Shown piece after piece: positions 1 to 14,899 of a DNA stretch of 16,267 bases. The stretch's first letter is position 1. Every line of letters begins with the position of its first letter. The DNA is from a virus (Duplodnaviria; Heunggongvirae; Uroviricota; Caudoviricetes): the IMG/VR virus record IMGVR_UViG_2778261227_000013, positions 1 to 16,267 of that record. The stretch is one strand, 5' to 3'. A program made the translations under genes and the position numbers. Under the pieces are notes generated by a model. It had not been told where the DNA came from. It searched no databases and was given only the letters and a program-made list of their open reading frames with translations.

Positions 1-1731
1 TTAGCCTGAGATATATTCGTCCGCTGCGTTCTTGATTATTTTTGACCTAACATTTTTAATGTACGGTATTTTTTTCAGATCATCCCTCGAACAGTGAACG
101 ATATCACCCACTTTAGGATAGGTTTCTTTTATTCGGTCGCATATTGCGTTACTAATTGACAAGCAACTAACCGGATCATCAAGAAGTTGTCCTACAATTG
201 ACCTTGTTGGTACAGGTGTCCCACACTTAGGACAAAACTTCGCATCTCCAGGTAACTCAGCGGAACAAGTTTGACACTCATCAGCTGATTCTTTCAATTT
301 TTCTAAAAAACGCTCTAATTCAGAATCTGCTGCGCCAAATTCTTTATAATCAGCGAGAGATAATAGTGTTATTATCTCCCCGAACTTATTAGATACGAAT
401 GCTTTTTCAGTGAAAAGTAATGATAAATTAACCATGTAGCGCTGACCCGATTTTCGATTAGACATCTTCACGGACCCTTGCTTGGAAAGAACACCAGAAT
501 AACAAAGCAAATCTAGAGACAATCTAAGATTTGGAGAAATAACGGGAGGAAGAACAAAAAAAGCAGATTGGGTTTGAGTCTTTTTCTCTCTGTTATTTTT
601 CAATCTAAGCTCAGGGATAATACACTCCCTAAGAATATCAAGTCCAATGCGAACATGGTGAGAATACTTAGGTAATCGTTTTGAAAGCCCTAAATGATAA
701 GGTAATAATTCTTGATTGACATAATCCTGAGTGCAAGTTAAAAGATCTCTTTCAGTATAACCTTTCTCATATACTTTATTAAATAAATGGAGAAATGCTC
801 TAGGGTTTCCGGATGAAAGATGAATACATTGATCTAGCAAATCACCTTTAGCCAATATTCTCTTTTTTGCTGCTCCTTGTGTGACCCGTTTATCTAATAG
901 ATCACGATATAAACGTCGTGTTCGTTCCCGCCCAATATTTCCAGTTTCGTATCCTCCGAGGTTTATCATCATGGCATCTTGACCAACTTCAAAATTTTTA
1001 CCATACGATGTAATTGACGGATATACAGCCGCCTTAACTGCAATTTTACCGCCATGAAGCAATTTAAATATTTCGAAGAATATTTCTTGCTGTTCTGGTA
1101 TAAAGGTATGAGCAGCCTCATCAAATAAAAAAACAATTCTATTAAGTTGGTATTCTTGAATTATCTCCTTGATGATGTCATTTACATAACTTATATCATT
1201 AACCTTATCTAAAAAATCCTCTCCAATTTCATTCAACAATTTATCTGAAGAAGGATCTCTTGATAACCTTTGAAGCAGATGAATTTTAGATTGTAGAGCA
1301 TCTTTCATCCCAGTTATAGTTTTAATCCCAAAAATTCTTTGAAATGGATCACTGCTATTATTGTCACGAATGACATCTAAAAATATCAACTTTTCGTACA
1401 AAGCTTGTAGTAACTTAGCGCTTACCCATATCTGAAATGCATTTTTATTGTCAGCTTTAACCCCTTCCAGCAAAGTACTGGTTTTGAAATTAACATATAC
1501 CCCCACAATCTTTTTAACAGGAAAATCACTATCTAATTCAGCTTCTGCCGCTCTTAGAAGCATAGACTTTCCAATTCCTCTGGCACCCTGAATCAGATGA
1601 GAGCCCGCTATTTTTAGTTTTGCTACAACATCTTTTTCAAACTCACCAAGAACAGCCAGTTGTTTGACCTGTTTCAACTCAAGATCTTCGGTACGTGCTG
1701 CATGTAATAACTCAGTGTCTAACATAGACAT
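1..1731 (-). CDS. P-loop NTPase with C-terminal zinc ribbon and RpoA alpha-CTD-like helix-hairpin-helix domain; candidate defence/cargo protein
   Basis: Complete 576-aa ORF with ATG at 1729-1731 and TAA at 1-3. Walker A GARGIGKS near residue 50, Walker B-like IVFLFDEAAH, and an SSGNPRAF sensor-like motif. C-terminal CQTCS...CPKCG four-cysteine ribbon, then a segment resembling the RNA polymerase alpha C-terminal domain (LSISNAICDRIKE...VGDIV...DDLKKIPYIKNVRSKII). One-nucleotide TAATG overlap with the upstream gene; GAGGT upstream. Very AT-rich. Confidence 0.8.
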   Translation of the reverse strand: MSMLDTELLHAARTEDLELKQVKQLAVLGEFEKDVVAKLKIAGSHLIQGARGIGKSMLLRAAEAELDSDFPVKKIVGVYVNFKTSTLLEGVKADNKNAFQIWVSAKLLQALYEKLIFLDVIRDNNSSDPFQRIFGIKTITGMKDALQSKIHLLQRLSRDPSSDKLLNEIGEDFLDKVNDISYVNDIIKEIIQEYQLNRIVFLFDEAAHTFIPEQQEIFFEIFKLLHGGKIAVKAAVYPSITSYGKNFEVGQDAMMINLGGYETGNIGRERTRRLYRDLLDKRVTQGAAKKRILAKGDLLDQCIHLSSGNPRAFLHLFNKVYEKGYTERDLLTCTQDYVNQELLPYHLGLSKRLPKYSHHVRIGLDILRECIIPELRLKNNREKKTQTQSAFFVLPPVISPNLRLSLDLLCYSGVLSKQGSVKMSNRKSGQRYMVNLSLLFTEKAFVSNKFGEIITLLSLADYKEFGAADSELERFLEKLKESADECQTCSAELPGDAKFCPKCGTPVPTRSIVGQLLDDPVSCLSISNAICDRIKETYPKVGDIVHCSRDDLKKIPYIKNVRSKIIKNAADEYISG

Positions 1732-2420
1732 TATAAAACTACCTCACTAGATTTAGGAAATGAAGATAGCACTTCTTTTCTTATCTTATGACGAACAATA
1801 TTGGAATTAATTATCATACCCAAAACAACCTCAGCCAGACCTATGAACCTCTCCCAATCTTCACTTTCAAAAGTGAACTTATTAGGCAAATCAGTTTCAA
1901 ATGAGGTTATTTTTCCATGAACGATATCACTTAATTGTCCATAAATTTTCTGTGCTCTTCTCATATCAATAACACATACTTTCCCTCCTATCTTCTCATT
2001 TTCTGTGAAGTAGTCTATATAGCCTTGATTTGTTATATGCTTCAACATATCACTGAAACTTAAGTCTTCATCATGATTTTTCCAAGAATATACAACATGA
2101 GGCATATCCCAAAGATAAATAGATGCGACACCTAGTTCCAAAACTCTCCTTAGAACAATATTAGCTGGTTTATCTATGGCACAGGCAGAAAGATATAAAG
2201 AAGATGACGTATCAGCAATAATCTCACTAAAAATTTTAATACAAACATCATGATGAACTGATGTTTTCTTTTTATTCAAAATTTCAGCAATCGTGTTAAG
2301 AGTGAAAATTGAGATAATTACTTTATCTAATTTTTTATCTTGTATGCCCTGCCATTCACGAAAGTTACTATTGAACTTATCGCTTAGCATATTAATTATC
2401 TCAGTAGGTGATTTGTTCAT
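1731..2420 (-). CDS. Hypothetical protein (229 aa), first gene of the AT-rich cargo operon; no recognisable motif
   Basis: ORF with ATG at 2418-2420 and AAGGGA upstream. Its stop overlaps the start of the downstream NTPase gene by one nucleotide, suggesting translational coupling. Same AT-rich composition as its partner. Confidence 0.7.
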   Translation of the reverse strand: MNKSPTEIINMLSDKFNSNFREWQGIQDKKLDKVIISIFTLNTIAEILNKKKTSVHHDVCIKIFSEIIADTSSSLYLSACAIDKPANIVLRRVLELGVASIYLWDMPHVVYSWKNHDEDLSFSDMLKHITNQGYIDYFTENEKIGGKVCVIDMRRAQKIYGQLSDIVHGKITSFETDLPNKFTFESEDWERFIGLAEVVLGMIINSNIVRHKIRKEVLSSFPKSSEVVL

Positions 2421-2520
2421 TTATTATGCATATCCCTTGTTTTTATCTGTCAATCAATAAGATAATAAGTATAATTTTATAATACAAGAAAATAAAAAGC
2501 CTTATTGATGTGTTTTATTG
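2421..2520 (-). promoter_or_regulatory. AT-rich putative promoter region for the two-gene cargo operon
   Basis: About 100 bp of very AT-rich non-coding sequence directly upstream of the 229-aa gene, at the composition boundary with the island backbone. No specific -35/-10 hexamers were assigned. Confidence 0.3.
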
Positions 2521-2741
2521 CTACTAAAGCGCGCAATGCTCTCCCCAGCAGGCCTGCCCGCTACACAGAGCAGTTTTCATGCAAGTGCATGATAAAAGCC
2601 TATCAGAATCGGCAGTTTTCAACATAAACGCCCACTAGCTACAGAGTGCAATTTTTCGTCATCGGCAATATCAACAACTAAACGCATAAATCAGACAAAC
2701 TGCTACCCGGCTCAATTTTGAGCCGTCTTTTAATCAACGGG

Positions 2742-2921
2742 TTATCGCCGCAGCATGTCCGGTTTCTTCCACTGATACGGCCTCACATCATCATGCTGGT
2801 GGCGTTCCTGTTGCAGCACAACGGAAACAGGCGCTGAACACCTGTTAATTTTGCTTGCTGGTTGTTTGATTTCGGCAATGCTGCGGAGCATCTCCAGCAT
2901 ATCGGCTTCGGTGATGGTCAT
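2742..2921 (-). CDS. Possible small protein (59 aa), hypothetical
   Basis: ORF not in the supplied track (below its size cutoff). ATG at 2919-2921 with AAGGTG about 8 nt upstream; translation MTITEADMLEMLRSIAEIKQ...DMLRR; TAA at 2742-2744. Confidence 0.25.
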   Translation of the reverse strand: MTITEADMLEMLRSIAEIKQPASKINRCSAPVSVVLQQERHQHDDVRPYQWKKPDMLRR

Positions 2922-2952
2922 GATTTACACCTTAGGAAATCTTAGGGGCTGG

Positions 2953-3205
2953 TTGACACTTTCCGGCTTAGGACCTTAACAAATCTTAACATCGCAGGTT
3001 GACACACTTGACACTTTTTCGCGAAAAACCTTATCAAACCTTAGCATTTCTAAGCATGGCAACTTGACACTTTTCGCGATTTTTTCGGCTTTTTGACGTG
3101 GTAAATCTGGCGAAAGGCCAGTAATGGCGCGGCTTACAGCGAGGTTGACACTTTTTCGCGTTCAGAGTGTAAAGTGTCAACCTGGCAAGCTGCTCAACTT
3201 GACAC
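2953..3205. repeat. Array of seven TTGACAC motifs (six direct, one inverted), three extended as TTGACACTTTT(T)CGCG; candidate protein-binding or packaging-recognition array
   Basis: TTGACAC at 2953, 2999, 3008, 3064, 3145 and 3199; inverted GTGTCAA at 3174. A TTGACGTG variant lies at 3093. The array sits immediately downstream of the Nu1/TerS-like HTH gene. Confidence 0.6.
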
Positions 3206-3214
3206 TTTTTGATG

Positions 3215-3742
3215 TCATTGATGGTCTGATTTTTCCCATTCAGCCAGGGCGTTTAGCCCGGCTTCACTCCATGATTCCAGTTCATCGGGACAATCACCTG
3301 CAACATAGCAGAGTTCGCAACGCAGCATACGAATTGCCAGCCTGGCATTACCTCGCAAATTGTATTGTTCAAAGTAATGCTGCCCGTCGCAATCCTCAAG
3401 GCAGATAGCACCATCATCAAGAAAGTGCACTTCCCAGCCTAATTCCCCGGCTGCATCCTGCACACGCTGCTGTATGCCCTCGTCCGTTGCTGGCGCAGGA
3501 ATTTTACCGCCTCTGGCCTTAACTGCTTTCCAGAACTCGCCCCACGTCATTTCCAGCGTTCTCTCTGGCCACATTTCAGAAACTGTGTCTTTTCCCTGTG
3601 CTGGTGGGCTGTTCCGCTGCTCTGTCGCTTCCACATCGATTTTTTTACCGGACATGACCACTTCGCCTTTCTCGATCCAGTCGTAAACTGTCTGGCGGCT
3701 TACGCCTTTGTGTTTGGCATATTCTGCCTTACTCATCAGCAT
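3215..3742 (-). CDS. Nu1/small-terminase-like N-terminal HTH protein (175 aa); possible packaging-redirection (Rpp-like) protein
   Basis: N-terminal SKAEYAKHKGVSRQTVYDWIEKGEV resembles the winged-HTH of lambda Nu1-type small terminase subunits. AAGGGTGAG upstream of the ATG at 3742; 6-nt gap from the upstream gene. Confidence 0.6.
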   Translation of the reverse strand: MLMSKAEYAKHKGVSRQTVYDWIEKGEVVMSGKKIDVEATEQRNSPPAQGKDTVSEMWPERTLEMTWGEFWKAVKARGGKIPAPATDEGIQQRVQDAAGELGWEVHFLDDGAICLEDCDGQHYFEQYNLRGNARLAIRMLRCELCYVAGDCPDELESWSEAGLNALAEWEKSDHQ

Positions 3743-3748
3743 TATGAC

Positions 3749-4420
3749 TCACCCTTCTTTTTCCAGTTGAGCCAGCCGCCCGGATATTTCTTCCAGTTTT
3801 TCCAGGGCTGGCTTGCAGGCCGCATCAATAACGTCCCGGACCATTCCGGCAAGCTGTTCTTCTGCTGTCGGCGTTGTTACTTCCACGCCCGATGGTTTCC
3901 CGCCCTTATCCCAAACACCAAGCGGCACGAGCGCAACGTGATCGATAAGAAATGGCGTACCCTCAATAAAAAAATTGTCCTCGCCCATTACATCAGGAAC
4001 TTCTGCCCCACCTGAGGCACCACAAAACACAACCGACGGACTGGTGGATACCTCCCCTCGGGCTTTCTGGATGTAATCGATGATTTCCTGTCCGTAAATC
4101 CGGCATACGCCCCACACCTCGTCACCGCGAATATACGGCAACATGACGGTGCCAATAATGCGCGACCGTTCGCCCACGTCTTCAAGGGTTTTGCTTTCGG
4201 GATGGTCGATAATGACGGGTACTCCGGCGCAACGTTCCAGGAACTGCGGATTGAGATAAGTTTGCGGTGAACGCCAGACAAATTCTTTTTCTTCGGCGCG
4301 GTAGGCCATTCCGGTTCCTGTGATACGCAGGTTAACCAGCCACATGTTGGAAAACTGATAAGGCGACGGTAGCTGTCCGTCCCGAATCTGCTTCGCCGCC
4401 TCAATTTCTGTTAAAAGCAT
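3749..4420 (-). CDS. Hypothetical protein (223 aa)
   Basis: Long ORF in operon arrangement with the downstream HTH gene. No clear Shine-Dalgarno before the ATG at 4420, so the start is uncertain. An imperfect hairpin lies in the upstream intergenic region. Confidence 0.6.
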   Translation of the reverse strand: MLLTEIEAAKQIRDGQLPSPYQFSNMWLVNLRITGTGMAYRAEEKEFVWRSPQTYLNPQFLERCAGVPVIIDHPESKTLEDVGERSRIIGTVMLPYIRGDEVWGVCRIYGQEIIDYIQKARGEVSTSPSVVFCGASGGAEVPDVMGEDNFFIEGTPFLIDHVALVPLGVWDKGGKPSGVEVTTPTAEEQLAGMVRDVIDAACKPALEKLEEISGRLAQLEKEG

Positions 4421-4484
4421 AATGTTATCCGGTTATAAGCAATAAGCCCCGCCAAATCCGGCAGGGCTGAACTCAGCACGTTTT

Positions 4485-5063
4485 TCATGCCCCCGCGAGG
4501 CTTGCAGTGTTAATTTTGACCAGGCGACGGGGAGGGATTTTGAAAGCACTAAGCCAGTTATTCGGATCCCCCTGATATTCAGTAATCCGCCGTCCGGCTT
4601 CATCCATTCTTACGGTTTTACGCAAATAGCCCGGCGTATTTTCCACAGCCCACTGAACACTGTCTTTTGCAGCCTGGTAAATCTGATCTTCCAGCACCGC
4701 CAGCGTTGCAGAATCTGAAACGGAACGAATATCCACATCACTGAATTTTTTAGCCAGCTTCTGTGCACCAATTAATGCACGCTTGCGGTAATCCATCGAC
4801 TTTTCGCCAGCAAACGGGGCCGGAGCGCGACGCCCCATATTGCTGTATGCGGAATCCGCTTTGGCCTGGGCTTCTGCCAGTGAGGATTCATCTTCGACTG
4901 ACGCGACGATGTTTTGATTAGCGTTATCCTCTTTTATGAAATCCTGTGCGGGGATCGCATTCAGAATTTCGATAATCTCCTGCGGAGTGCTTCCCTGCGA
5001 CTCTGACAGAGCGTTAACCACCTCCATCAGTTTTAATCGCAAATCTTCTTTGCTTGCTGGCAT
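4485..5063 (-). CDS. Hypothetical protein (about 192 aa)
   Basis: The track ORF begins at a GTG at 5072. An ATG at 5063 preceded by GAGAGGTGG is the more likely start (MPASKEDLRLK...). Confidence 0.6.
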   Translation of the reverse strand: MPASKEDLRLKLMEVVNALSESQGSTPQEIIEILNAIPAQDFIKEDNANQNIVASVEDESSLAEAQAKADSAYSNMGRRAPAPFAGEKSMDYRKRALIGAQKLAKKFSDVDIRSVSDSATLAVLEDQIYQAAKDSVQWAVENTPGYLRKTVRMDEAGRRITEYQGDPNNWLSAFKIPPRRLVKINTASLAGA

Positions 5064-5102
5064 TTTTACCACCTCTCTTTTTTCACCAAAAAATCACGAC
5101 CA

Positions 5103-5472: not shown

Positions 5473-5477
5473 CTCCG

Positions 5478-5765
5478 TCACTGACTGCAATTTTTCGATC
5501 CAGGGTATTTCCTGAATGCCTTACCATTGGGCTGATGTAATCCCATCCCGGCATGTGCCCGGCTGATGGTTTCGCGCATCTCCCCGAAATTATCCTGCCT
5601 TGCTGGTGGGCGTGCTGCCTTGCGGATACATTCCGCGCGACGTTTTGCCGCCTGTTCCCGTGCCTTGTCATCATTCGCCAGCATGATGACCTCAGCCCAC
5701 CGCGCCGCCGCTCTCCGGTACAGACCACGCGCTTCCAGTGCTTCCGCTTTGCTGTCGTGAATCAT
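5478..5765 (-). CDS. PerC-like small transcriptional regulator (95 aa), tentative
   Basis: Translation MIHDSKAEALEARGLYRRAAARWAEVI... matches my recollection of the PerC-family N-terminal signature. ATGA overlap with the stop of the upstream ProQ/FinO gene. Confidence 0.55.
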   Translation of the reverse strand: MIHDSKAEALEARGLYRRAAARWAEVIMLANDDKAREQAAKRRAECIRKAARPPARQDNFGEMRETISRAHAGMGLHQPNGKAFRKYPGSKNCSQ

Positions 5766-6351: not shown

Positions 6352-6637
6352 GGGTAGAGGGGTAGACGGAGGGTAGATAACAAAAAATAGTCCTCTACCC
6401 ACTTAACTTAATGAAAAAAAACAACTTTCACACATTAGGTAGAGGGGTAGACCGTAAAATAGAAAAGTTTGAAACTTACTTTCTTACAATCTGTGTTTTC
6501 CTCTCGCTGTATAAAAAGTTTTTTGAGCGGGGATGTTGTCTACCCCTCTACCCACTTCTCTGAAAGCCTTGTGCTACGAGGGATTCAGCGGGTAGACAAT
6601 AAAAAATCACCATCTACCCTGTGTCTACCCATCTACC
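6352..6637. repeat. Iteron array GGGTAGA(G/C/T) in direct and inverted copies with A-rich spacers; putative replication origin
   Basis: Direct copies at 6352, 6360, 6371, 6438, 6445 and 6590. Inverted copies at 6393, 6538, 6546, 6612, 6623 and 6631. A-rich spacers between clusters. Located immediately downstream of the primase/helicase gene. Confidence 0.75.
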
Positions 6638-8403: not shown

Positions 8404-8690
8404 TTCTTACCTCCCGCAACCAACATTGCCCGGATTTTTTTTATATTCGTGGCTGCACGTCTTGCCACTGCCTGTTGTTTGTTTTCCACCAGAATAAAAT
8501 CACGCTCAAACTGACGGCGCGGCATTACGCAGTCATATTCGTAAGCCTCACGGCGGTAGGTGATATTGCCTGGCGTAACGTGACGAATAACCACTCGTCC
8601 CCCACTTCTGGTGTCGCGGTAAATATCTCCGTGTCTGATTTCAGGCCGAGAGAGACCGCTGGCAGTAAAGCCAGAATTTTTCTTTTTCAT
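8400..8690 (-). CDS. Hypothetical protein (96 aa)
   Basis: AGGAAAA upstream of the ATG at 8690; ATGA-type 4-nt overlap with the primase gene. Confidence 0.6.
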   Translation of the reverse strand: MKKKNSGFTASGLSRPEIRHGDIYRDTRSGGRVVIRHVTPGNITYRREAYEYDCVMPRRQFERDFILVENKQQAVARRAATNIKKIRAMLVAGGKK

Positions 8691-8694
8691 GGTT

Positions 8695-8895
8695 TTATTT
8701 TCCTGTCAGCAGTTCCGGTTTTATTTCCGCACGAATACAAAGTTCAGAAAAAAATTCAGGAGAACCAACAATCTCATTACTTTTCAGTCGGCATTGTGAT
8801 TTCACTTTCCCTTTATCCAGGTAAACCAGTACGCGTCCGGTGAAATCATCTGGCACATTAAGCACTACGGGTACATGCGCTTCATGATTATGCAT
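8695..8895 (-). CDS. Hypothetical small protein (66 aa), paralog-like to the N-terminus of the 9114..9479 product
   Basis: GGAGGA upstream of the ATG at 8895. Begins MHN and carries FTGRVLVYLDKGKVKS, similar to FTGQLLVNVENGRVVS in the 9114..9479 product. Confidence 0.6.
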   Translation of the reverse strand: MHNHEAHVPVVLNVPDDFTGRVLVYLDKGKVKSQCRLKSNEIVGSPEFFSELCIRAEIKPELLTGK

Positions 8896-9121
8896 GGCTT
8901 ACATCCTCCGTGAATTTTCTTCTGTAACGCGTCTCTGCCACATATTCCGCATAGTCCGACGCAATACTAAGAATCATTTCACCCTCTGACTTGTAGCCAC
9001 TGGTATTGATAAGAAAATATGCAGCTTTCATCATGTCAGCAACGCTCAACAATGCGCCCGCTGCATCTTCCGGTGCGCCATCAAATTCCCGTTTCAGGGA
9101 ATTAAAACGATCATCACGCAT
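8888..9121 (-). CDS. Hypothetical small protein (77 aa)
   Basis: AGGGGGG upstream of the ATG at 9121; 8-nt overlaps with both neighbouring genes. Confidence 0.6.
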   Translation of the reverse strand: MRDDRFNSLKREFDGAPEDAAGALLSVADMMKAAYFLINTSGYKSEGEMILSIASDYAEYVAETRYRRKFTEDVSHA

Positions 9122-9479
9122 GTTTACCCCCCTGAATGACCTGATAACCGCAACTGGTCAGCAATTCCATAAATTCCGGCAATGTGCCGAAACAGTAATC
9201 ATCACACAGACGTTCGCGGGATACTTCAACGCCGTTTTCGTAGTGACTCACCATACACCCGGTAAAACGCAGATCATCATCGTGATGGCACGTTGACGGC
9301 TTAATCAGTCGCGCACGCTCCGCCAGTGCCAGGAATGCTTCAACGCTTCCGGCAATTGCACCATCCGGCAGGTGATAATTACTTACTACGCGTCCATTCT
9401 CTACATTGACCAGTAGCTGCCCGGTAAATTTCTCATCAAACTGAATGCTGTTAAGTTCAGAAATAGCCGAATTATGCAT
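9114..9479 (-). CDS. Hypothetical protein (about 121 aa)
   Basis: AGGAGGTG upstream of the ATG at 9479 (MHNSAISELN...). The track's longer ORF start at 9497 is less likely. Confidence 0.6.
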   Translation of the reverse strand: MHNSAISELNSIQFDEKFTGQLLVNVENGRVVSNYHLPDGAIAGSVEAFLALAERARLIKPSTCHHDDDLRFTGCMVSHYENGVEVSRERLCDDYCFGTLPEFMELLTSCGYQVIQGGKHA

Positions 9480-9696
9480 GGTGCACCTCCTGCACATCAG
9501 CCATGATAATTTTTCCGGCCTTATCCAGTGCCTGATCGGCTTTTAGCTGCACAAATGCTAAATAATGGGAGATGCATTCTGATTCTCTGACTGCGTGTTT
9601 ATGCGCCACACCAGCGATAGCTGAAATCTCAATAAGTGAATCCATCAGCGTTTTGATAGCGTCTACCGCTGCATCAGGCCATGTTACATTACACAT
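9472..9696 (-). CDS. Hypothetical small protein (74 aa)
   Basis: AGGAGGTGGAG upstream of the ATG at 9696; 8-nt ATGTGTAA overlap with the upstream gene. Confidence 0.6.
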   Translation of the reverse strand: MCNVTWPDAAVDAIKTLMDSLIEISAIAGVAHKHAVRESECISHYLAFVQLKADQALDKAGKIIMADVQEVHHA

Positions 9697-10054
9697 GCTC
9701 CACCTCCTGGCGAATACGGGCAGCGAATACCATCACGCAGCCATCAGGGGATTGCTGGCGTGCTTCCTGTTCGCTGGTGGCCTCGATGTGAATTACGCGC
9801 GGTTGTGCTGTGCTCAGGGCGATAAAACGCCAGATAAAATTGTTCTCGCATTTCTGAATAAACAGCGTGTTTTCTTCGCGCCCTTTCCATGTTGCCGAGA
9901 TATAGCCCATGTCATTGAGCATCTCGCAGGCATCAACCAGCGTATCAGCAGCTACGTGTACAGTGTTTTTACCGTCAGCTATGCAATCACGGTGCACCGC
10001 CAGGAAGGTGTATATAAATTTAGGGTGAGTTTGGGTATGCTGTGTTCCAGCCAT
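9689..10054 (-). CDS. Hypothetical protein (121 aa), first gene of the leftward operon
   Basis: ATG at 10054 preceded by GAGGT. It is the C-terminal part of the 510-aa track ORF, whose upstream portion is judged non-coding or shadow. Confidence 0.6.
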   Translation of the reverse strand: MAGTQHTQTHPKFIYTFLAVHRDCIADGKNTVHVAADTLVDACEMLNDMGYISATWKGREENTLFIQKCENNFIWRFIALSTAQPRVIHIEATSEQEARQQSPDGCVMVFAARIRQEVEHV

Positions 10055-10143
10055 AATCGTTACCTCATTTAACGGTTTGGTTAGACGCCCCGCTACTGCC
10101 GCAAACAGTTCGGGGCGTTGTCGTTTACATCCTCTTACTGAGG

Positions 10144-10219
10144 TGTGATTTAAATTAAATTTAACTGAATCACAGGTCAAGTATTTTTTGTGATTCTTTT
10201 TTGTGTATACTGAATCACA
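10144..10219. promoter_or_regulatory. Divergent promoter/operator region with two 31-bp palindromes TGTGATT-N17-AATCACA
   Basis: Palindrome 1 at 10144-10174 and palindrome 2 at 10189-10219. Palindrome 2 encloses a TATACT -10-like hexamer (10206-10211) for the rightward gene. A leftward TTGACC -35-like hexamer (complement of 10175-10180) lies beside palindrome 1. Confidence 0.6.
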
Positions 10220-10241
10220 TCTTTTGTTTAGGAGAATGCAC

Positions 10242-10547
10242 ATGGCAAAAAACACTATCAACGACAAATCAAAACAGATTTCAATTCGTATCCCACATGA
10301 TGCTTTTGAAGGCATGGAATCCGTAAAACTGGACGGTGAAAGCAACGCCGGATTCATAGTAACCGCCATGCGCGGTGAGATCGCCCGCCGCCAGGCAGAA
10401 GGAAGCGGAGAAAATCCCCTGGTTTCTTCGCTCGATGCGCTGGCGCAGGTGGAAAAAATCGGAGTCAAAGCTGCCGAGGAGATCGGGCAGCTCGTCACCG
10501 TCGCACGTGAAGAACTCCAGCGCCGCAAGGCCAAAGAATCAGAATAA
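10242..10547 (+). CDS. Ribbon-helix-helix-like (Arc/MetJ/CopG-type) DNA-binding regulator (101 aa), tentative
   Basis: AGGAG 8 nt upstream of the ATG at 10242. N-terminal KQISIRIPHDAFEGMESV...NAGFIVTAMRGEIARRQ has the strand-helix-helix pattern; the C-terminus is charged and coiled-coil-like. Confidence 0.6.
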   Translation: MAKNTINDKSKQISIRIPHDAFEGMESVKLDGESNAGFIVTAMRGEIARRQAEGSGENPLVSSLDALAQVEKIGVKAAEEIGQLVTVAREELQRRKAKESE

Positions 10548-10604
10548 TAACTATCATCGCCGTGGTGTGAGGAACTCCGGCGCATTGCTTTACAGGTACA
10601 CAGA

Positions 10605-10799
10605 ATGACCAACAAAGAATCAACCAATACACCATCACCGGCACGGAAAAGACGGCGCAGAAAGATAGAGCATGAATCAGAAAGATTCGCGCCATGTGCT
10701 TTTGCCCTTGAGCAATTCCTTAAAGAGTACAGGCGCACAAAAATGGGATCGCATACCTGGAAAACATCGCGGCATGGCAATGTTAAAGAGCATGAATAG
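10605..10799 (+). CDS. Possible small basic protein (64 aa), hypothetical
   Basis: ORF downstream of and co-oriented with the RHH-like gene; weak AGGT upstream. Composition is plausible (K/R/E-rich), whereas the opposite-strand frame here is Cys/Ser-rich. Confidence 0.3.
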   Translation: MTNKESTNTPSPARKRRRRKIEHESERFAPCAFALEQFLKEYRRTKMGSHTWKTSRHGNVKEHE

Positions 10800-10829
10800 C
10801 CCACCAGCAAGCCAGCACACTGATCACAT

Positions 10830-11221
10830 TGCCCACCAGCCGCAAATCTGGCATTGTTGGCAATGTGTTCAAGTGTGTAGCTTTCCCACTGGTGGCCCTC
10901 TGCAGTCGCCTTTGTTTTATCCAGAACGAAATCAGACATCAGATTGATCAGCACCTGGTGACCTGACAAAATCGCATCAGTCGCGCCACCAGCAAAATTT
11001 TTTGCTTTCCGGACAGCGTGGCTAACGGCATTTTGCAGCAAAATATTCTGCATTTCTGGCGTACTGTAGTAACAGTGATCAGCGCCTTCACTCTGTGCGA
11101 CCACAACGCTATAATCTGCCTCGTAGACAGTAAGCAATATGGCGCAGTAGGCTATTCGTTCACAAAGGCGCTCCGGCAACGGGGCGCTTTCTCTTTTTGT
11201 AACGGTCAGAGCGTTACACAT
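10830..11221 (-). CDS. Candidate gene with unresolved 3' end (5' part of the 510-aa track ORF); possibly a remnant
   Basis: ATG at 11221 preceded by GGAGGA, with an 8-nt ATGTGTAA overlap to the antirepressor gene stop. The first roughly 130 codons look protein-like, but there is no in-frame stop until 9689. The 3' coordinate is approximate. Confidence 0.3.
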
Positions 11222-12014
11222 GGCTGTTTTCCTCCATGCGACGGGCTAACCAACGCTGCGAAAGACGAATTAATTCAGCCTTCCGCTGGTGGTAGTCCTG
11301 GCCTAACTCAATCAGCGTGATATTGCTCTGCTCAAGGTAAGAAAGGTGCTCAAGCTGCAACGTGCTCATGTGGTCGCGTGGTTCGCCTGTAATGCCGTTC
11401 GCCAGTGCCCACTGTTTTGCAGTCATGCCACCCAGCACGATACGCGCCAGCATGCTCGCTTCCGTGGTGTAGTGGTGCTGGAGTGTGTTTTTACCCAGTT
11501 CAGCCCGGTACGCCTCCAGCGCGGCACACATTGGCTTAAAGTAGCTGGCAACTGTGATACGGGCTTTCAGTTCCCGGCGTAACGCTGCGGAACGAACAGG
11601 CGCAACCTTGTGTAGCTCCTCCTCGCATTTGATAAAGTACTGGCGAACGGCGCGGCCCTGTTCGGTACGTTCGACCATCGCCAGTTCTTTCGCCATGTTC
11701 ACTGTGATGATGTACTCAAGAGCGGTTTGCTGGCGAGATTTTGCGCTCACCGGATCGGGTCGGCTCAAATATTCAACAACCTCATAATCCACGCCTTCCG
11801 TGAACCCGTATTCTTCAATGCGCCCCTTGATCCACGAACGGAAAACGCGCCCTACACCTAACGCCTTATGTAACGCTCTGGCGCTAACAATAGTGGTTTC
11901 ACTCCCGCCAATAACGCCGGAAATAATCGGGATAATTTCGCCGAAATTTTGCAGATTCTGGTTTTCAGTCCGAACGAAGCCCCGCCCCTGTACGGGCGTT
12001 TTTGGAAATTTCAT
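11214..12014 (-). CDS. Phage antirepressor-like protein (AntA N-terminal / KilAC-type C-terminal domains), 266 aa
   Basis: N-terminal ...TIVSARALHKALGVGRVFRSWIKGRIEEYGFTEGVDYEV... resembles the AntA/Bro-N type antirepressor signature as recalled. AGGAG 7 nt upstream of the ATG at 12014. Confidence 0.7.
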   Translation of the reverse strand: MKFPKTPVQGRGFVRTENQNLQNFGEIIPIISGVIGGSETTIVSARALHKALGVGRVFRSWIKGRIEEYGFTEGVDYEVVEYLSRPDPVSAKSRQQTALEYIITVNMAKELAMVERTEQGRAVRQYFIKCEEELHKVAPVRSAALRRELKARITVASYFKPMCAALEAYRAELGKNTLQHHYTTEASMLARIVLGGMTAKQWALANGITGEPRDHMSTLQLEHLSYLEQSNITLIELGQDYHQRKAELIRLSQRWLARRMEENSHV

Positions 12015-12091
12015 AAAAACTCCTGCTATCGAATTAAGTTACTTTTATTTGCTGGTGGATAGCTGGGGGCAATAGCCCCGTAGCCATTTAA

Positions 12092-12289
12092 TCAGGTAGC
12101 TGTTCCGCGTGATTCCGCAATACGCTGATTAATCCACTCGTCAATTTCACTCTCAACGAAAGCAATAGCTCGCGAGCCAATTTTAACTGATGCAGGAAAT
12201 TTACCTTGCCCCATAAGGCGATAAATCCATGCCTTGCTATATCCAGTTCTACGCTGAACTTCTGTTAAACGAATAAGCGTATTTGACAT
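12092..12289 (-). CDS. alpA: AlpA-family phage transcriptional regulator (65 aa)
   Basis: MSNTLIRLTEVQRRTGYSKAWIYRLMGQGKFPASVKIGSRAIAFVESEIDEWI matches the AlpA/MerR-like HTH family signature (YRL...GKFP..K.G.RA.A..ESE...WI). GAGGT upstream of the ATG at 12289. Confidence 0.85.
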   Translation of the reverse strand: MSNTLIRLTEVQRRTGYSKAWIYRLMGQGKFPASVKIGSRAIAFVESEIDEWINQRIAESRGTAT

Positions 12290-12358
12290 ATATTTACCTC
12301 ATAACGTCTACTCAATTTGACGAGGTAATCATGGCACAGAAATAACGAATATTTTCAT

Positions 12359-12502
12359 ACCCTCAGGCCTAATGGTTACCGGAAGGAAATTAACCCTAAG
12401 GGTGATGGTAATCGGGAGGAAATCTACCCTAAGGGTGATGGTAAAATTGACGGGGAAGATAAAAAAATACCCTCAGGGTAACAGTAAATCATCCTCAGGG
12501 TA
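12359..12502. promoter_or_regulatory. Upstream region of alpA with five ACCCT(A/C)AGGG palindromic boxes, including a 31-bp tandem duplication
   Basis: Boxes at 12359, 12393, 12426, 12469 and 12492. Copies at 12381-12411 and 12414-12444 are near-identical (GGA[A/G]GGAAAT[T/C][A/T]ACCCTAAGGGTGATGGTAA). Confidence 0.55.
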
Positions 12503-12516
12503 TGCGGTATGGTGCG

Positions 12517-13314
12517 TTAATCCGGCTTTGCGTTCTTTTGGCTGTTGTCTCGGTTAATAGGGCAGGCAGTCCTCTCTATGAGCGTTGCAAGTGCATTACT
12601 TGCCCCCCACTGCTTAAGCTCCCTGGTTATCGCTTCTTGATTTCCCCTGGTGGCAAAATCATTTTCTGGATCGTAATTGGCCCACTCTCTGTTTCTAATC
12701 TCAATAGCCTTAGCTAATGGGTCTTTATCCCAGTATTTATATAAGTGTATCGGGCGCTCTTGCTCTAACTGCTCTATCCTTGCCCTTAACTCTGCGTTTT
12801 CTTTTTCCAGCATTGCGATTTGGGATAATAAATCATCCTCTGTACGCAACTCTTTCTTTTCAATATCGCGTCCTTGTGCCTCGTCATTTTCAGAAGAGTT
12901 AGCGCCTTCCAGCTTCGTTAACGCGTCAAGGACATCGGGAAAAATTGCGAAAATTTCACCCCTTATAAATCCAATGTTCTCAAATTCGGGATCTTCCCAA
13001 TAACCGGACACCAGAAAACCATTTTCATCCCTCTCACCAGGTAAACAACCACGTTTCCGAACCGCATTCAGATTTCTATAAAGAACATCATAATCAAATT
13101 CATCCCGATACGGGTTACAAAAAGATTCCAACAGCTTAAATTCATTTACTGTGTACAGGCGGATATGTTCTCCGCTTATTCTCCTGAGTATCCAAGTTAT
13201 GACATCTGAAACATCATAATCATCACCAGCGACCTTAAGCACGACCTCAAGAAATTCACGTAAAGAAATAAAATCTTTTTTGTATTCGTTTAATTCGGCA
13301 TGAATATCAATCAT
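12517..13314 (-). CDS. Hypothetical protein (about 265 aa) with central coiled-coil; AT-rich cargo-like gene between int and alpA
   Basis: The track ORF starts at a GTG at 13320; an ATG at 13314 preceded by GAGGTG is more likely. Coiled-coil-like segment LSQIAMLEKENAELRARIEQLEQE. Visibly AT-rich relative to its neighbours. Confidence 0.65.
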   Translation of the reverse strand: MIDIHAELNEYKKDFISLREFLEVVLKVAGDDYDVSDVITWILRRISGEHIRLYTVNEFKLLESFCNPYRDEFDYDVLYRNLNAVRKRGCLPGERDENGFLVSGYWEDPEFENIGFIRGEIFAIFPDVLDALTKLEGANSSENDEAQGRDIEKKELRTEDDLLSQIAMLEKENAELRARIEQLEQERPIHLYKYWDKDPLAKAIEIRNREWANYDPENDFATRGNQEAITRELKQWGASNALATLIERTACPINRDNSQKNAKPD

Positions 13315-13442
13315 ACGCACACCTCAGCGTCCTCTACTGTAGTGGCTGTACCAGTCCGTCGAGGTGTACGGATTTTCGGGAGCGACCCTAGACACAGCCT
13401 TTTCTTTCGTCGCTCAAAGTCTACTACTGTATACGCAACCAG

Positions 13443-14657
13443 TCATCCACATTTTCCGAACTTGCCATGCACCACGTTACCGCCATGTTCGAGCGAATCC
13501 ATATAGTCGGCGTACCACTGGAGCATCTCGCGCCGCCCGTCCAGATATTGCGCATGATTGTACGTGCCACGAATTGAGTTCTTATCAACGTGTGCAAGCT
13601 GCGTTTCTATCCACGCGGTGTTATAGCCCTGCTCATGTAAAATCGTGCTCATGGTGTGCCGGAATCCATGACCAGTAACCTTTCCGTTATAGCCGATGCG
13701 TTTAAATACTTGGTTTATGCTAGCCTCGCTCATTGTTTTCCTTGGATCATTACGGCCGGGAAACATAAGCGGATAATTACCAGTTAATTCTTTAATCTGC
13801 CCAATAAGAGAAAGAGCCTGCTTAGACAAAGGCACCACATGAGGGCGACGCATTTTCATCCGTGAAGCAGGTATCTCCCAGATAGCCTTGTTGAGATCGA
13901 TTTCATCCCATAATGCACCGCGCAGTTCGCCAGTTCGCAAACCAGTGATAATCAGTAGACGAGCCGCCATAACAACCAATGCACTTCCTGAGTAACTGGA
14001 CAATGCCTTGAAAAAATCAGGCAATTCTTTGGCTGTGAGGAAAGGATAATGATTAGATTCATGGCCTTGCATCGCGCTAGTAAGATCTGGGGCAGGGTTA
14101 TACTCTGCGCGACCAGTGACTATTGCATAGCGGAAAACTTCCCCGCACCGCTGCCTCACTTTTTTGGCTTTTTCTGTAGCACCGCGCCCCTCGATGCGTC
14201 GCAGCACATTCAGAAGTTCAAGTGGTTTGATTTCGGCAATTGGTTTTTTGCCAATGTAAGGGAACACATCTTTGTTGAAGGCTTCGAGGATATCTGAAGC
14301 ATAACCAGCAGACCATTTTTTTAATTTGCTGCTGTGCCACTCAAGGGCAATATCTTTGAAGGTATTGTTTAACTGCGTTTCCCGGGCAATCTTTTCCTCT
14401 CGTTTCGCTTCCATCGGATCGATACCCCCAGCGATACCCCTTTTAGCTTCTTCACGTTTTGCACGAGCATCAGCCAAGGTAACTTCAGGATACACACCTA
14501 GTGCTAACAGCTTCTCTTTACCAGCTACACGATATTTAAAGCGCCAGTATTTTCCTCCACTAGGTTTTACCAGGAGATACAGACCACCACCATCAGCCAG
14601 CTTGTAAGCCTTCTCTTTTGGCTTGGCAGTGTCTATTTGACGGGCATTGAGTTTCAC
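13443..14657 (-). CDS. int: Tyrosine recombinase / phage integrase (P4-type, with N-terminal arm-binding domain), 404 aa
   Basis: N-terminus AKPKEKAYKLADGGGLYLLVKPSGGKYWRFKY is typical of P4-like integrases. C-terminal catalytic region contains HGFRHT and a terminal Y (GTYNHAQY). GTG start at 14657 with GGAGGT upstream. Directly adjacent to the tRNA 3' end. Confidence 0.93.
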   Translation of the reverse strand: MKLNARQIDTAKPKEKAYKLADGGGLYLLVKPSGGKYWRFKYRVAGKEKLLALGVYPEVTLADARAKREEAKRGIAGGIDPMEAKREEKIARETQLNNTFKDIALEWHSSKLKKWSAGYASDILEAFNKDVFPYIGKKPIAEIKPLELLNVLRRIEGRGATEKAKKVRQRCGEVFRYAIVTGRAEYNPAPDLTSAMQGHESNHYPFLTAKELPDFFKALSSYSGSALVVMAARLLIITGLRTGELRGALWDEIDLNKAIWEIPASRMKMRRPHVVPLSKQALSLIGQIKELTGNYPLMFPGRNDPRKTMSEASINQVFKRIGYNGKVTGHGFRHTMSTILHEQGYNTAWIETQLAHVDKNSIRGTYNHAQYLDGRREMLQWYADYMDSLEHGGNVVHGKFGKCG

Positions 14658-14823
14658 TTGGGGGTACCTCCACTAAACCGAACAGCAAATACCCCCAAAA
14701 GTACCCCCAATTGACTGTAGATTTTGGGGTACTTAAGTAGACATCAAAAGACTAAAAGGGGCGCTAACATGCGGATTATAAGAGGTTTTTAAATACTTGA
14801 GTAGACTTGGGGAGACGTTAGAA
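14658..14823. other. att-proximal region between integrase and tRNA with candidate arm-type repeats
   Basis: Direct repeats TACTT(A/G)AGTAGAC at 14730-14742 and 14794-14806. GGGGTAC at 14661 and 14726, with inverted GTACCCC at 14701. Confidence 0.45.
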
Positions 14824-14899
14824 TGGTGCCGATAATAGGAGTCGAACCTACGACCTTCGCATTACGAATGCGCTGCTCTACCAACTGAGCTATATCGGC
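14824..14899 (-). tRNA. thrW: tRNA-Thr (anticodon CGU)
   Basis: The reverse complement reads GCCGATATAGCTCAGTTGGTAGAGCAGCGCATTCGTAATGCGAAGGTCGTAGGTTCGACTCCTATTATCGGCACCA: a 76-nt cloverleaf-compatible sequence with a CGT anticodon and encoded CCA end. Confidence 0.96.

What the first reader, a model, noticed from the sequence alone, without database searches (positions are those of the whole stretch)
1..14899. Satellite-like island integrated at thrW beside proA; left boundary not captured
An integrase abuts the 3' end of tRNA-Thr(CGU) and is followed by alpA, an antirepressor, a switch region, a replication operon with a P4-type primase/helicase, an iteron origin and a Nu1/TerS-like gene. 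This architecture fits P4-like or PICI-like satellites. The tRNA-Thr(CGU) gene next to proA is a known integration hotspot; in E. coli K-12 it holds the cryptic prophage CP4-6. The content here looks like a different occupant of that site. No structural or capsid genes are recognisable, consistent with a satellite rather than a full prophage.
Basis: partly seen in the sequence, partly recalled or inferred. Interest (0 to 1): 0.6.

Follow-up and report, generated by a model that had tools for sequence, protein, structure and literature searches.

The report
PICI-type phage satellite at thrW
This is a roughly 15.7-kb phage satellite (a PICI) inserted in the E. coli tRNA-Thr gene thrW: an ordinary member of a known family, carrying a copied phage head-protease gene that points to Rac-type phages as its helper, and a two-gene cargo that looks like an undescribed anti-phage system.

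Summary
An intact tyrosine integrase sits 166 nt from the 3' end of tRNA-Thr(CGU). It is followed by alpA, an AntA antirepressor, a small divergent gene pair, a replication operon and an iteron origin.

The element is a Gram-negative PICI, not a P4-like satellite.
- Its integrase is 97% identical to that of EcCIMP1, a PICI shown experimentally to excise from this same thrW site.
- Its Pri-Rep protein is 70% identical over its full length to that of the prototype EcCICFT073, and the origin uses the same GGTAGA iterons.
- Of the P4 proteins, only Int, AlpA/Vis and the helicase part of alpha have homologues. Sid, Psu, Delta, epsilon and a P2/P4 or lambda cos site are absent.

The missing left end is recovered in a 99.1%-identical genome (TUM9757). 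The att core CGATAATAGGA recurs 0.84 kb left of the window, beside yagP/paoD, with no structural genes in between.

Two corrections apply.
- Capsid-assembly genes are present. Two adjacent genes are the split halves of a Rac-type phage head protease gene. Genomes carrying this module also carry Rac-type head genes in at least 17 of 34 cases, against 0.5 expected.
- The "TerS-like" gene is supported only as a winged-HTH protein.

The AT-rich cargo pair is a candidate defence system shared with a Serratia P4-like satellite.

The parts
14824..14899 (-). tRNA-Thr(CGU) gene thrW, the integration target; intact
   Evidence: ARAGORN; Rfam tRNA 71.8 bits
14830..14840 (.). att core CGATAATAGGA (tRNA-proximal junction). 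The second copy lies about 0.84 kb left of window base 1.
   Evidence: Only two copies occur in the 40-kb locus L001, at 11163 and 26835. It contains the EcCIMP1 core TCCTATTATC.
14658..14711 (.). Candidate integrase arm-type sites: ACCCCCAA at 14691 and 14703, inverted copy at 14658
   Evidence: The same doublet follows the distal att copy in L001 (11237, 11249) and in EC11. Function is inferred.
13443..14657 (-). Tyrosine integrase, 404 aa
   Evidence: Pfam domains; 97% aa identity to EcCIMP1 Int; 43% to P4 Int; 25% to EcCICFT073 Int
13331..13398 (-). int-alpA RNA motif (Rfam RF02996)
   Evidence: 45.5 bits against a gathering score of 35.8, E 8.5e-7
12517..13320 (-). 267-aa ORF of unknown function between int and alpA
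   Evidence: No Pfam, NCBIfam or PADLOC hit; 100% identical in the WWCOL-236 and EC11 islands
12372..12444 (.). 33-bp tandem repeat, 2.2 copies, upstream of alpA; possible regulatory site
   Evidence: TRF score 111; role not tested
12092..12289 (-). AlpA-family regulator/excisionase
   Evidence: PF05930 E 2.4e-19; 81% identity to EcCIMP1 AlpA, 37% to EcCICFT073 AlpA and to P4 Vis
11214..12014 (-). AntA/AntB-type antirepressor
   Evidence: PF08346 E 2.3e-23; 59% identity to the EcCIMP1 homologue
10203..10799 (+). Two rightward genes (YlcI/YnfO-family 10203-10547; 64-aa ORF 10605-10799), divergent from the replication operon: the 'switch' region
   Evidence: NF041551 E 5.6e-18; both conserved in EcCICFT073 in the same relative position (35% and 77% identity)
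8400..10054 (-). Leftward early operon: Icd-like (9689-10054), four small ORFs, DUF4222 (8400-8690)
   Evidence: NF033153 E 2.4e-21; PF13973 E 3e-19; EcCICFT073 counterparts 35-74% identical
6655..8403 (-). Pri-Rep replication protein, 582 aa (D5_N plus SF3 helicase plus C-terminal domain)
   Evidence: 69.6% identity over full length to EcCICFT073 Pri-Rep; residues 142-578 are 41% identical to P4 alpha 327-763; phrog_864 E 4e-138
6352..6637 (.). Replication origin: 12 GGTAGA iterons in two opposed sets around an A+T-rich core (6453-6537)
   Evidence: The same iteron core lies 3' of EcCICFT073 pri-rep, whose ori was shown to be functional (PMC6092414).
5762..6346 (-). ProQ/FinO-family protein
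   Evidence: PF04352 E 7e-23
5478..5765 (-). PerC-family regulator, followed by a strong terminator-like hairpin (5438-5408)
   Evidence: PF06069 E 2e-32
4485..5072 (-). 195-aa homologue of the C-terminal domain of the Rac-type phage head protein 'rac43'
   Evidence: 65% identity to residues 295-423 of Rac-SA53 ALP46870 and to the TUM9757 Rac prophage copy; phrog_6216 positions 409-545
3749..4420 (-). 223-aa DUF2213 protein: prohead-protease-fold homologue of the N-terminal half of rac43
3215..3742 (-). 175-aa winged-HTH protein: candidate packaging-specificity factor (TerS/Rpp analogue) or excisionase
2742..2921 (-). 59-aa conserved small ORF
   Evidence: phrog_7271 and phrog_1561. The same PHROGs sit next to the TerS-like gene of the gut-transferred island of PMC12251178.
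1..2420 (-). AT-rich cargo operon: 229-aa protein (1731-2420) plus 576-aa ORC/Cdc6-like P-loop ATPase with C-terminal zinc ribbon (1-1731); candidate anti-phage system
   Evidence: GC 0.29-0.39; PF24389 E 8e-14 and Zn_Ribbon_1; pair conserved in Serratia, Vibrio and Chitinispirillaceae; no convincing PADLOC match (best hit E 0.0089, 11.7 bits)

Best explanation
The window holds nearly all of a phage-inducible chromosomal island (PICI) of the E. coli lineage. It is about 15.7 kb long and integrated by its own tyrosine integrase into the 3' end of thrW.

Shown by sequence:
- The int/att module is that of EcCIMP1.
- The regulatory and replication backbone is that of EcCICFT073: AlpA, divergent YlcI/YnfO gene, Icd-like gene, small ORFs, DUF4222, Pri-Rep, iteron ori, PerC.
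- The slot after PerC holds two genes copied from a Rac-type phage head protease gene.
- A conserved winged-HTH gene closes the operon.
- A variable cargo slot lies between that gene and the distal att arm.

Inferred from experiments on those relatives:
- A helper phage switches on alpA. AlpA drives the leftward operon and, together with Int, excision.
- Pri-Rep binds the GGTAGA iterons and replicates the circle.
- The DNA is packaged into helper-made virions.

Inferred here:
- The helper is a Rac-SA53-like lambdoid phage.
- The satellite's free protease domain and free C-terminal domain enter or compete in the helper's procapsid assembly, to resize or sabotage it.
- The 175-aa HTH protein supplies packaging specificity.

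The cargo pair is most likely an anti-phage system that benefits the host and the satellite.
For: Site and integrase:
- Int is 97% identical to EcCIMP1 Int.
- The att core and the distal junction AATGGTGC-GATAATAGGAAC are the same as in EcCIMP1.
- EcCIMP1's excision, boundaries and helper-mediated transfer were shown experimentally (PMC11773190).

Backbone:
- Gene order is colinear with EcCICFT073.
- Identities are Pri-Rep 69.6%, Icd 74%, orf64 77%, DUF4222 52%, PerC 53%.
- Iterons lie 3' of pri-rep with the same core as the EcCICFT073 ori, matching the PICI ori layout of PMC6092414.

Whole element:
- Only two att copies exist in TUM9757, 15.7 kb apart. There are no lysis, tail, portal, capsid or terL genes.

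Mobility:
- Int, the 267-aa ORF and AlpA are 100% identical in islands with other cargo, another primase allele or another morphogenesis module, and in tandem arrays.
- A backbone relative transferred between strains in the mouse gut in a donor carrying the Nef and KingRac prophages (PMC12251178).

Helper:
- The two genes are 54% and 65% identical to the two ends of one Rac-SA53 head gene that lies between the portal gene (rac41)/rac42 and two further unannotated head-region genes, rac44 and the 342-aa rac45.
- The N-terminal half has the protease fold.
- The module occurs in 34 of 5426 genomes and Rac head genes in 84 of 5426. At least 17 genomes have both, against 0.53 expected, hypergeometric p about 1e-21.
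- TUM9757 itself carries a Rac-type prophage.
- A relative in STEC005 carries two further Rac-gene homologues.
Against: - No induction, excision or transfer data exist for this element.
- The helper assignment rests on homology and co-occurrence. Co-occurrence is inflated by related strains (many ETEC/STEC isolates from the same studies).
- The Rac prophage of TUM9757 has an IS1-truncated integrase.
- No DNA segment resembling a helper pac or cos site is shared with Rac phages, and no lambda or P2 cos site is present.
- The 175-aa protein has no detectable TerS or Rpp domain beyond the HTH.
- EcCIMP1, which has the same integrase, uses a P22-like helper, so the integrase says nothing about the helper.
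- SatelliteFinder could not be run. It scored related islands only as incomplete P4-like/PICI or as Type C PICI.
Confidence: 0.78

Rival explanations
1. It is a PICI, but Rac-type phages are its target rather than its helper. On this reading the copied protease half and C-terminal half act as a decoy that poisons Rac capsid assembly (interference or defence), and another phage, for example a P22-like or lambda-like one, mobilises the island.
For: - EcCIMP1, with a 97%-identical integrase, is mobilised by the P22-like phage Kapi1.
- PICIs are known to interfere with phage reproduction.
- The split and swapped order of the two halves, with a terminator-like hairpin between them, fits a dominant-negative design.
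- No Rac-like pac sequence is shared.
Against: - In characterised satellites the interference target is normally the helper itself, so this overlaps largely with the main reading.
- Co-residence in at least half of the carrier genomes is expected for a helper.
- The sister island in STEC005 carries further Rac virion-gene homologues, as EcCIMP1 does for its own helper Kapi1.
Confidence: 0.15
2. It is a decayed, no longer mobile remnant: a cryptic island fixed at thrW, like CP4-6 in K-12.
For: - The distal att copy lacks one C relative to the tRNA copy.
- The left end is chimeric, with a foreign integrase fragment.
- The full-length configuration is seen in only 2 of 5426 complete genomes.
Against: - The same one-base-shorter distal att is present in EcCIMP1, which excises.
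- All core ORFs are intact and match their family models over full length.
- Near-identical backbones carry different cargo and modules and sit in tandem arrays, which implies recent movement and recombination.
Confidence: 0.1
3. It is a P4-like satellite that depends on a P2-type helper.
For: - Int is 43% and Vis/AlpA 37% identical to the P4 proteins, and the helicase part of alpha is 41% identical.
- An Icd-like gene is present.
- The cargo pair also occurs in a P4-like satellite hotspot.
Against: - There is no Sid, Psu, Delta or epsilon homologue at E<=0.01.
- There is no P2/P4 cos site within 3 mismatches.
- Alpha's primase domain is absent.
- The gene order is that of EcCICFT073, not P4.
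- Only 3 of the 7 P4 core components of de Sousa et al. are present.
Confidence: 0.02
4. It is an integrative element moved by conjugation or another non-phage route, and its phage-like genes are incidental.
For: A ProQ/FinO-family gene is typical of conjugative plasmids. No terminase or cos site was identified.
Against: - No relaxase, oriT-associated or type IV secretion gene is found in Pfam or PHROG scans.
- The backbone is that of experimentally phage-mobilised PICIs.
- Phage head-gene homologues are present.
Confidence: 0.03

Closest known systems
EcCIMP1 (E. coli MP1 PICI, helper phage Kapi1; PMC11773190)
   Same: - Same integration site (tRNA-Thr between proA and the yagU side) and same att core.
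- Int is 97% identical, AlpA 81%, AntA 59%, PerC 46%.
- Same orientation and general order.
   Different: - EcCIMP1 is 20 kb with a TOPRIM/DUF927 primase of 918 aa.
- Its post-primase module holds homologues of P22-like DNA-ejection proteins.
- It has different cargo.
- Beyond int, alpA and antA there is no DNA similarity.
EcCICFT073 (prototype E. coli PICI, helpers lambda and phi80; PMC6092414, PMC6739421)
   Same: - Colinear backbone from alpA to PerC.
- Pri-Rep is 69.6% identical, with GGTAGA iterons 3' of pri-rep.
- The divergent YlcI/YnfO gene pair, the Icd-like gene and DUF4222 are shared.
   Different: - The integrase is only 25% identical and the att site differs (next to roxA/phoQ).
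- SSB replaces ProQ.
- Its post-PerC module is annotated as major-capsid and head-decoration homologues.
- It uses RppA plus a lambda-type cosN, and neither is found here.
Satellite phage P4
   Same: It is a tRNA-integrating satellite with an Int of the same family, a Vis/AlpA regulator, an alpha-type SF3 helicase with iteron binding, and a defence-cargo hotspot.
   Different: The window has no sid-delta-psu operon, no epsilon, no P2-type cos site and no alpha primase domain, and the gene order differs.
SaPI1 capsid-size redirection (CpmA/CpmB) and other satellite scaffold mimics (reviewed in PMC6893505; comparison from general knowledge)
   Same: The satellite carries a short protein related to part of a helper head-assembly protein. 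Such a protein could compete inside the procapsid.
   Different: - Here the donor gene is a protease with a C-terminal domain, split into two satellite genes in swapped order.
- No size redirection has been shown.
- There is no sequence relationship to Cpm proteins.
Putative satellite transferred in the mouse gut (PMC12251178)
   Same: The backbone families match: Int, AlpA, DUF4222, primase, ProQ, PerC, a phrog_57 HTH/TerS-like gene followed by a phrog_7271/1561 small ORF, and cargo at the end. The donor carries a Rac-like prophage, KingRac.
   Different: That island has Ash, SSB, a DUF927 primase, a second TerS-like gene and an AIDA autotransporter cargo. No DUF2213 gene is listed.

Membership tests
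PICI, Gram-negative lineage (Fillol-Salom 2018; de Sousa 2023) | Own integrase and a specific chromosomal att site, flanked by direct repeats | tested here: met
   The integrase is intact. The 11-bp core is repeated 15.7 kb apart in TUM9757. The core is the same as in EcCIMP1.
PICI, Gram-negative lineage (Fillol-Salom 2018; de Sousa 2023) | AlpA-type regulator near int, transcribed in the same direction as the bulk of the element | tested here: met
   PF05930 E 2.4e-19 at 12092-12289(-). All large genes are on the '-' strand except two small ORFs.
PICI, Gram-negative lineage (Fillol-Salom 2018; de Sousa 2023) | Pri-Rep replication protein, with an origin of two iteron sets around an A+T-rich region immediately 3' of the gene | tested here: met
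   69.6% identity to EcCICFT073 Pri-Rep. 12 GGTAGA iterons lie at 6352-6637. The layout follows.
PICI, Gram-negative lineage (Fillol-Salom 2018; de Sousa 2023) | Size of about 10-20 kb and no lysis, tail, portal, capsid or large-terminase genes | tested here: met
   15.7 kb between att copies. Pfam, PHROG and NCBIfam scans of all ORFs of 55 aa or more on the coding strand find none.
PICI, Gram-negative lineage (Fillol-Salom 2018; de Sousa 2023) | Capsid-morphogenesis component | tested here: met
   The genes at 3749-4420 and 4485-5072 are homologous to a Rac-type head protease gene, and the former has the protease fold. Whether SatelliteFinder's own profiles would score them was not tested.
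PICI, Gram-negative lineage (Fillol-Salom 2018; de Sousa 2023) | Small terminase or Rpp packaging-redirection protein | tested here: inconclusive
   The 175-aa protein shares only the winged HTH with TerS, Rpp and Xis. There is no PDB sequence match to RppC or TerS and no viral fold match.
PICI, Gram-negative lineage (Fillol-Salom 2018; de Sousa 2023) | Helper-phage-dependent induction, replication, packaging and high-frequency transfer | not testable with these tools
   This was shown only for the relatives EcCICFT073 and EcCIMP1.
Rpp/cos subgroup of E. coli PICIs (EcCICFT073 type) | Lambda-like cosQ-cosN next to an rpp gene | tested here: not met
   GGGCGGCGACCT is absent even with 2 mismatches. 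No Rpp homologue was found by sequence.
P4-like satellites (de Sousa 2023: Int, Psu, Delta, Sid, AlpA, epsilon/Ash, alpha) | The psu-delta-sid capsid-hijack operon and epsilon | tested here: not met
   tblastn of all P4 proteins finds no hit with E<0.09 for sid, psu, delta or epsilon. No Phage_ASH domain is present.
P4-like satellites (de Sousa 2023: Int, Psu, Delta, Sid, AlpA, epsilon/Ash, alpha) | Full-length alpha (primase plus helicase) and a P2-type 19-nt cos site | tested here: not met
   Only alpha residues 327-763 are matched. The cos pattern is absent with 3 mismatches.
Capsid-forming PICI (cfPICI) | Own major capsid, portal, head-tail adaptor/connector and terL genes | tested here: not met
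   None was detected. Among Rac head proteins, only rac43 has homologues in the window.
Cryptic prophage CP4-6 | Sequence homology to the K-12 thrW occupant | tested here: not met
   Only the flank and att segment match (L001 11101-11173 against K-12). The integrase fragment is not intF-like.

The most novel reading that the evidence does not exclude
The satellite has taken its helper's single protease-plus-targeting-domain head gene and split it into two separately expressed genes. One is a free assemblin/gp21-fold protease that retains the invariant His and Ser. The other is a free C-terminal domain. Together they would be used to re-programme or sabotage Rac-type procapsid assembly.

This would be a capsid-hijack mechanism not described for any PICI. 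It would also give a sequence-based way to predict helpers: the slot after PerC carries helper-specific virion-gene copies. Examples are lambda-like capsid genes in EcCICFT073, P22-like ejection genes in EcCIMP1 and Rac-type genes here.

In addition, the 229-aa plus ORC/Cdc6-like ATPase-zinc-ribbon pair may be a new anti-phage system that shuttles between P4-like and PICI satellites.
Probability: 0.35. Interest if true: 0.6.

Novelty: new member of a known kind. Interest (0 to 1): 0.35.

Why it matters
The island itself is a routine PICI, but it is informative in three ways.

1. It shows that thrW, known in K-12 for the cryptic CP4-6, is a shared landing pad for mosaic PICIs. These reuse one integrase with interchangeable replication, morphogenesis and cargo modules.

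2. The morphogenesis slot appears to record the helper lineage. That gives a testable helper prediction (Rac-type phages, whose K-12 representative Rac is a cryptic prophage) and a possible new protease-based capsid hijack.

3. The cargo pair, which moved together with a piece of a foreign integrase from a P4-like hotspot, is a concrete candidate for an uncharacterised defence system. It is also an example of defence genes shuttling between satellite families.

Tried and rejected
- Lambda cosN (up to 2 mismatches) and the P2/P4 cos site (up to 3 mismatches) were searched; there were no matches.
- A shared pac-like DNA segment between the island and three Rac-type phages or prophages was sought. 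Only the protease-gene homology appeared.
- The 175-aa protein was compared with PDB sequences, phage genomes by tblastn, PDB folds and viral predicted folds. Only the HTH matched, so a TerS or Rpp assignment could not be made.
- The two morphogenesis proteins and the cargo ATPase had no useful PDB sequence relatives.
- PADLOC gave no convincing match for the cargo pair (best hit for the ATPase E 0.0089, 11.7 bits; none for the partner). NCBIfam gave only weak P-loop similarity to an 'anti-phage protein' model, 27 bits against a cut-off of 370.
- The integrase fragment left of the window was first taken for an intF/CP4-6 remnant. That reading was rejected: it does not match intF, and it is 63-75% identical to the integrase of a Serratia P4-like satellite that carries the same cargo.
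- The 380-aa protein of the alternative morphogenesis module in WWCOL-236 had no phage match.
- The apparent closeness of satellite and Rac prophage in STEC005 (about 40 kb) was checked as a possible helper-embedded satellite. They are separate insertions at ttcA and beside smrA.
- The 510-codon ORF at 9689-11221 was rejected as a gene. Only its Icd-like end has support, and it runs antisense to two conserved genes.

Full report
**What is in the window.** The window is E. coli chromosome. It matches strain TUM9757 over all 16,267 bases at 99.1% identity, and 5,416 of 5,426 complete genomes match some part of it, consistent with the proA/tRNA end being core chromosome. proA lies at 15014-16267(-). 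tRNA-Thr(CGU) lies at 14824-14899(-). Leftward from the tRNA, almost everything is on the minus strand:
- a 404-aa tyrosine integrase (13443-14657);
- an Rfam int-alpA RNA motif (13331-13398, 45.5 bits);
- a 267-aa ORF without family;
- AlpA (12092-12289) and an AntA antirepressor (11214-12014);
- two small rightward genes, a YlcI/YnfO-family gene at 10203-10547 and a 64-aa ORF;
- a leftward operon of an Icd-like gene, four small ORFs, DUF4222 and a 582-aa D5_N/DUF5906 replication protein (6655-8403);
- a 300-bp intergenic region full of repeats;
- ProQ/FinO, and PerC followed by a strong terminator-like hairpin;
- a 195-aa ORF, a 223-aa DUF2213 protein, a 175-aa HTH protein and a 59-aa ORF;
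- an AT-rich pair (GC 0.29-0.39 against about 0.5) encoding a 229-aa protein and a 576-aa ORC/Cdc6-like ATPase with a zinc ribbon.

**Check of the observation.** The iteron claim is well above chance: 10 of the 11 GGGTAGA sites in the window lie in 6352-6630, against 0.88 expected, and no shuffle reached that number. In total there are 12 GGTAGA copies, six per strand, around a 67% A+T core.

Three details need correction.
- The replication protein is "P4-type" only in its helicase and C-terminal part. It is 41% identical to alpha residues 327-763 and has a different 140-residue N-terminus in place of alpha's primase domain.
- The "Nu1/TerS-like" gene is supported only as a winged HTH.
- The statement that no capsid genes are recognisable is wrong (see the morphogenesis section below).

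**Left boundary.** In TUM9757 (locus L001) the window corresponds to 12001-28272. The 11-mer CGATAATAGGA from the tRNA 3' end occurs only twice in those 40 kb: in the tRNA (26835, which is window 14830) and at 11163, next to the yagP-like LysR fragment and paoD. These are the same chromosomal neighbours that bound CP4-6 in K-12. The extended repeat is AATGGTGC(C)GATAATAGGA, and the distal copy lacks one C.

The same distal junction (AATGGTGCGATAATAGGAAC...) is found in E. coli MP1, WWCOL-236 and EC11. The core is the TCCTATTATC repeat that Sanger sequencing of excision products defined for EcCIMP1 (PMC11773190). The element is therefore about 15.7 kb, and its left end lies 0.84 kb outside the window.

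The first roughly 400 bp inside the distal att are 84% identical to the EC11 island. They carry the same ACCCCCAA doublet that lies upstream of int, so they are candidate arm sites. Beyond that point the sequences diverge. No phage structural genes lie in the flank.

**Which family.** Comparison with P4 itself gives homologues only for Int (43%), Vis/AlpA (37%) and the alpha C-terminal part (41%). Sid, Psu, Delta and epsilon have no match, and the P2/P4 cos site is absent. PMC6092414 states that exactly these three proteins are the only distant links between E. coli PICIs and P4.

In contrast, the island is colinear with the prototype PICI EcCICFT073 from alpA to PerC. Identities are Pri-Rep 69.6% over full length, Icd-like 74%, the 64-aa ORF 77%, DUF4222 52% and PerC 53%. 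The region 3' of EcCICFT073 pri-rep was shown to be a functional origin built of two iteron sets around an A+T-rich stretch, and it uses the same GGTAGA core.

The integrase is instead that of EcCIMP1 (97% amino-acid identity; 94% DNA identity across int-tRNA-proA). EcCIMP1 is a PICI at this very site that is induced and transferred by phage Kapi1. The element is thus a mosaic PICI: the EcCIMP1 integration module, the EcCICFT073 replication backbone, and its own morphogenesis and cargo modules. Relatives confirm the modularity. WWCOL-236 and EC11 have 100% identical Int, 267-aa ORF and AlpA but a 54%-identical primase allele, and a different morphogenesis module or different cargo.

**Morphogenesis module and helper.** The 223-aa DUF2213 protein and the 195-aa protein both hit one 545-position PHROG, at positions 115-328 and 409-545. 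They are 54% and 65% identical to residues 1-226 and 295-423 of a single 430-aa protein of Escherichia phage Rac-SA53. The gene for that protein lies after terS, terL, the portal gene and rac42, and before rac44 and the 342-aa rac45.

In the island the two halves are separate genes in swapped order, the C-terminal half first, with a terminator-like hairpin between them. No other Rac head gene has a homologue in the window.

Co-occurrence was tested as follows.
- The island module occurs in 34 of 5,426 complete genomes.
- The Rac-SA53 genes rac44-rac45, which are not homologous to anything in the island, occur in 84.
- 16 genomes appear in both lists as displayed.
- TUM9757 itself has a Rac-type prophage at ttcA with the full late region. 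Its DUF2213 protein is 53% and 65% identical to the island proteins.
- At least 17 of 34 genomes therefore carry both, against 0.53 expected, hypergeometric p about 1e-21.
- Many carriers are related ETEC/STEC isolates, so the p-value is overstated. The carriers nevertheless come from water, cattle, otter, pig, goat, baboon and crow.

A sister island in STEC005 carries two further homologues of Rac tail-region genes, at 80% and 53% identity. EcCIMP1 likewise carries homologues of its helper's ejection proteins, and EcCICFT073 carries capsid and decoration homologues after PerC. Independently, a backbone relative was seen to transfer in the mouse gut from a donor carrying the Rac-like prophage KingRac. 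That relative has ProQ, PerC, a phrog_57 HTH gene, a phrog_7271/1561 small ORF, DUF4222, AlpA and Int (PMC12251178). I therefore rate Rac-type phages as the most likely helper, at about 0.55. The mechanism (competition or mis-timed proteolysis in procapsid assembly) is inference only.

**Cargo.** The 229-aa/576-aa pair occurs in only 4 of 5,426 E. coli genomes. The same ordered, overlapping pair is found in three other settings:
- in a Serratia P4-like satellite, between Ogr/Delta and int, which is the documented P4 defence hotspot;
- as an isolated insertion in Vibrio;
- in Chitinispirillaceae.

The slot in TUM9757 (L001 11584-14421) is colinear at 71.5% DNA identity with the Serratia locus, including the 3' third of that satellite's integrase gene. 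This explains the integrase pseudogene left of the window: it hitch-hiked with the cassette and is not a remnant of intF. EC11 carries an ATP-dependent nuclease in the same slot. PADLOC has no convincing match, and NCBIfam gives only weak P-loop similarity to an anti-phage model. Recent work found that most unannotated P4-hotspot loci tested (6 of 8) do confer phage resistance (PMC13586616). A defence role is likely, at about 0.5, but untested.

**Verdict.** The finding is real and its interpretation is right. The element is a new mosaic member of the known E. coli PICI family at a published PICI site. It is ordinary as a class, with two leads worth following: the protease-based hijack with helper prediction, and the cargo pair.

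Noticed in passing
window 13331-13398 (-): Rfam int-alpA RNA motif (RF02996), 45.5 bits against a gathering score of 35.8, directly downstream of int. Its function is unknown.
   Followed up: no
window 12372-12444: A 33-bp tandem repeat (2.2 copies, 87% match) lies 83-155 nt upstream of the alpA start. It may be an operator for whatever signal switches on alpA.
   Followed up: no
window 9689-11221 (-): A stop-free frame of 510 codons runs antisense through two conserved rightward genes. Only its last 121 codons (Icd-like) have family support. EcCIMP1 has a decayed ash gene at the equivalent place.
   Followed up: partly
window 1-2420; L001 11584-14421; L007 8000-10854: The AT-rich cargo pair is colinear (71.5% nt identity) with the defence hotspot of a Serratia P4-like satellite, including the 3' third of that satellite's integrase. 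The cassette therefore moved between satellite families with a piece of integrase attached.
   Followed up: yes
L005 21415-27426; L006 17891-23929; L003 1-8709: thrW holds tandem arrays in other strains: the island plus a prophage with its own integrase in WWCOL-236 and EC11, and the island plus a vat/MarR islet in MP1. Prophage-type elements therefore sit in tandem with the PICI at this tRNA locus.
   Followed up: partly
L015 39781-49501: A sister island beside smrA in STEC005 keeps the split protease genes and adds homologues of two Rac tail-region genes: a 205-aa protein at 80% identity and an SLT-domain protein at 53%.
   Followed up: partly
L017 10799-12219: The Rac-type prophage of TUM9757 has its integrase truncated by IS1 and lacks the xis-recET region, yet keeps racR and an apparently complete late region. 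It may act as a helper only in situ, or not at all.
   Followed up: no
L015 6252-7688; L017 31695-33131: RefSeq names the Rac portal-position gene 'anti-CBASS protein Acb1 family protein', whereas Pfam gives Phage_portal_3 for the Rac-SA53 orthologue. This is probably a misleading annotation.
   Followed up: no
window 3749-4420 homologues: In several other phages and metagenomic contigs the DUF2213 protease-fold domain is fused to a NUDIX hydrolase domain instead of the Rac-type C-terminal domain. The reason is unknown.
   Followed up: no
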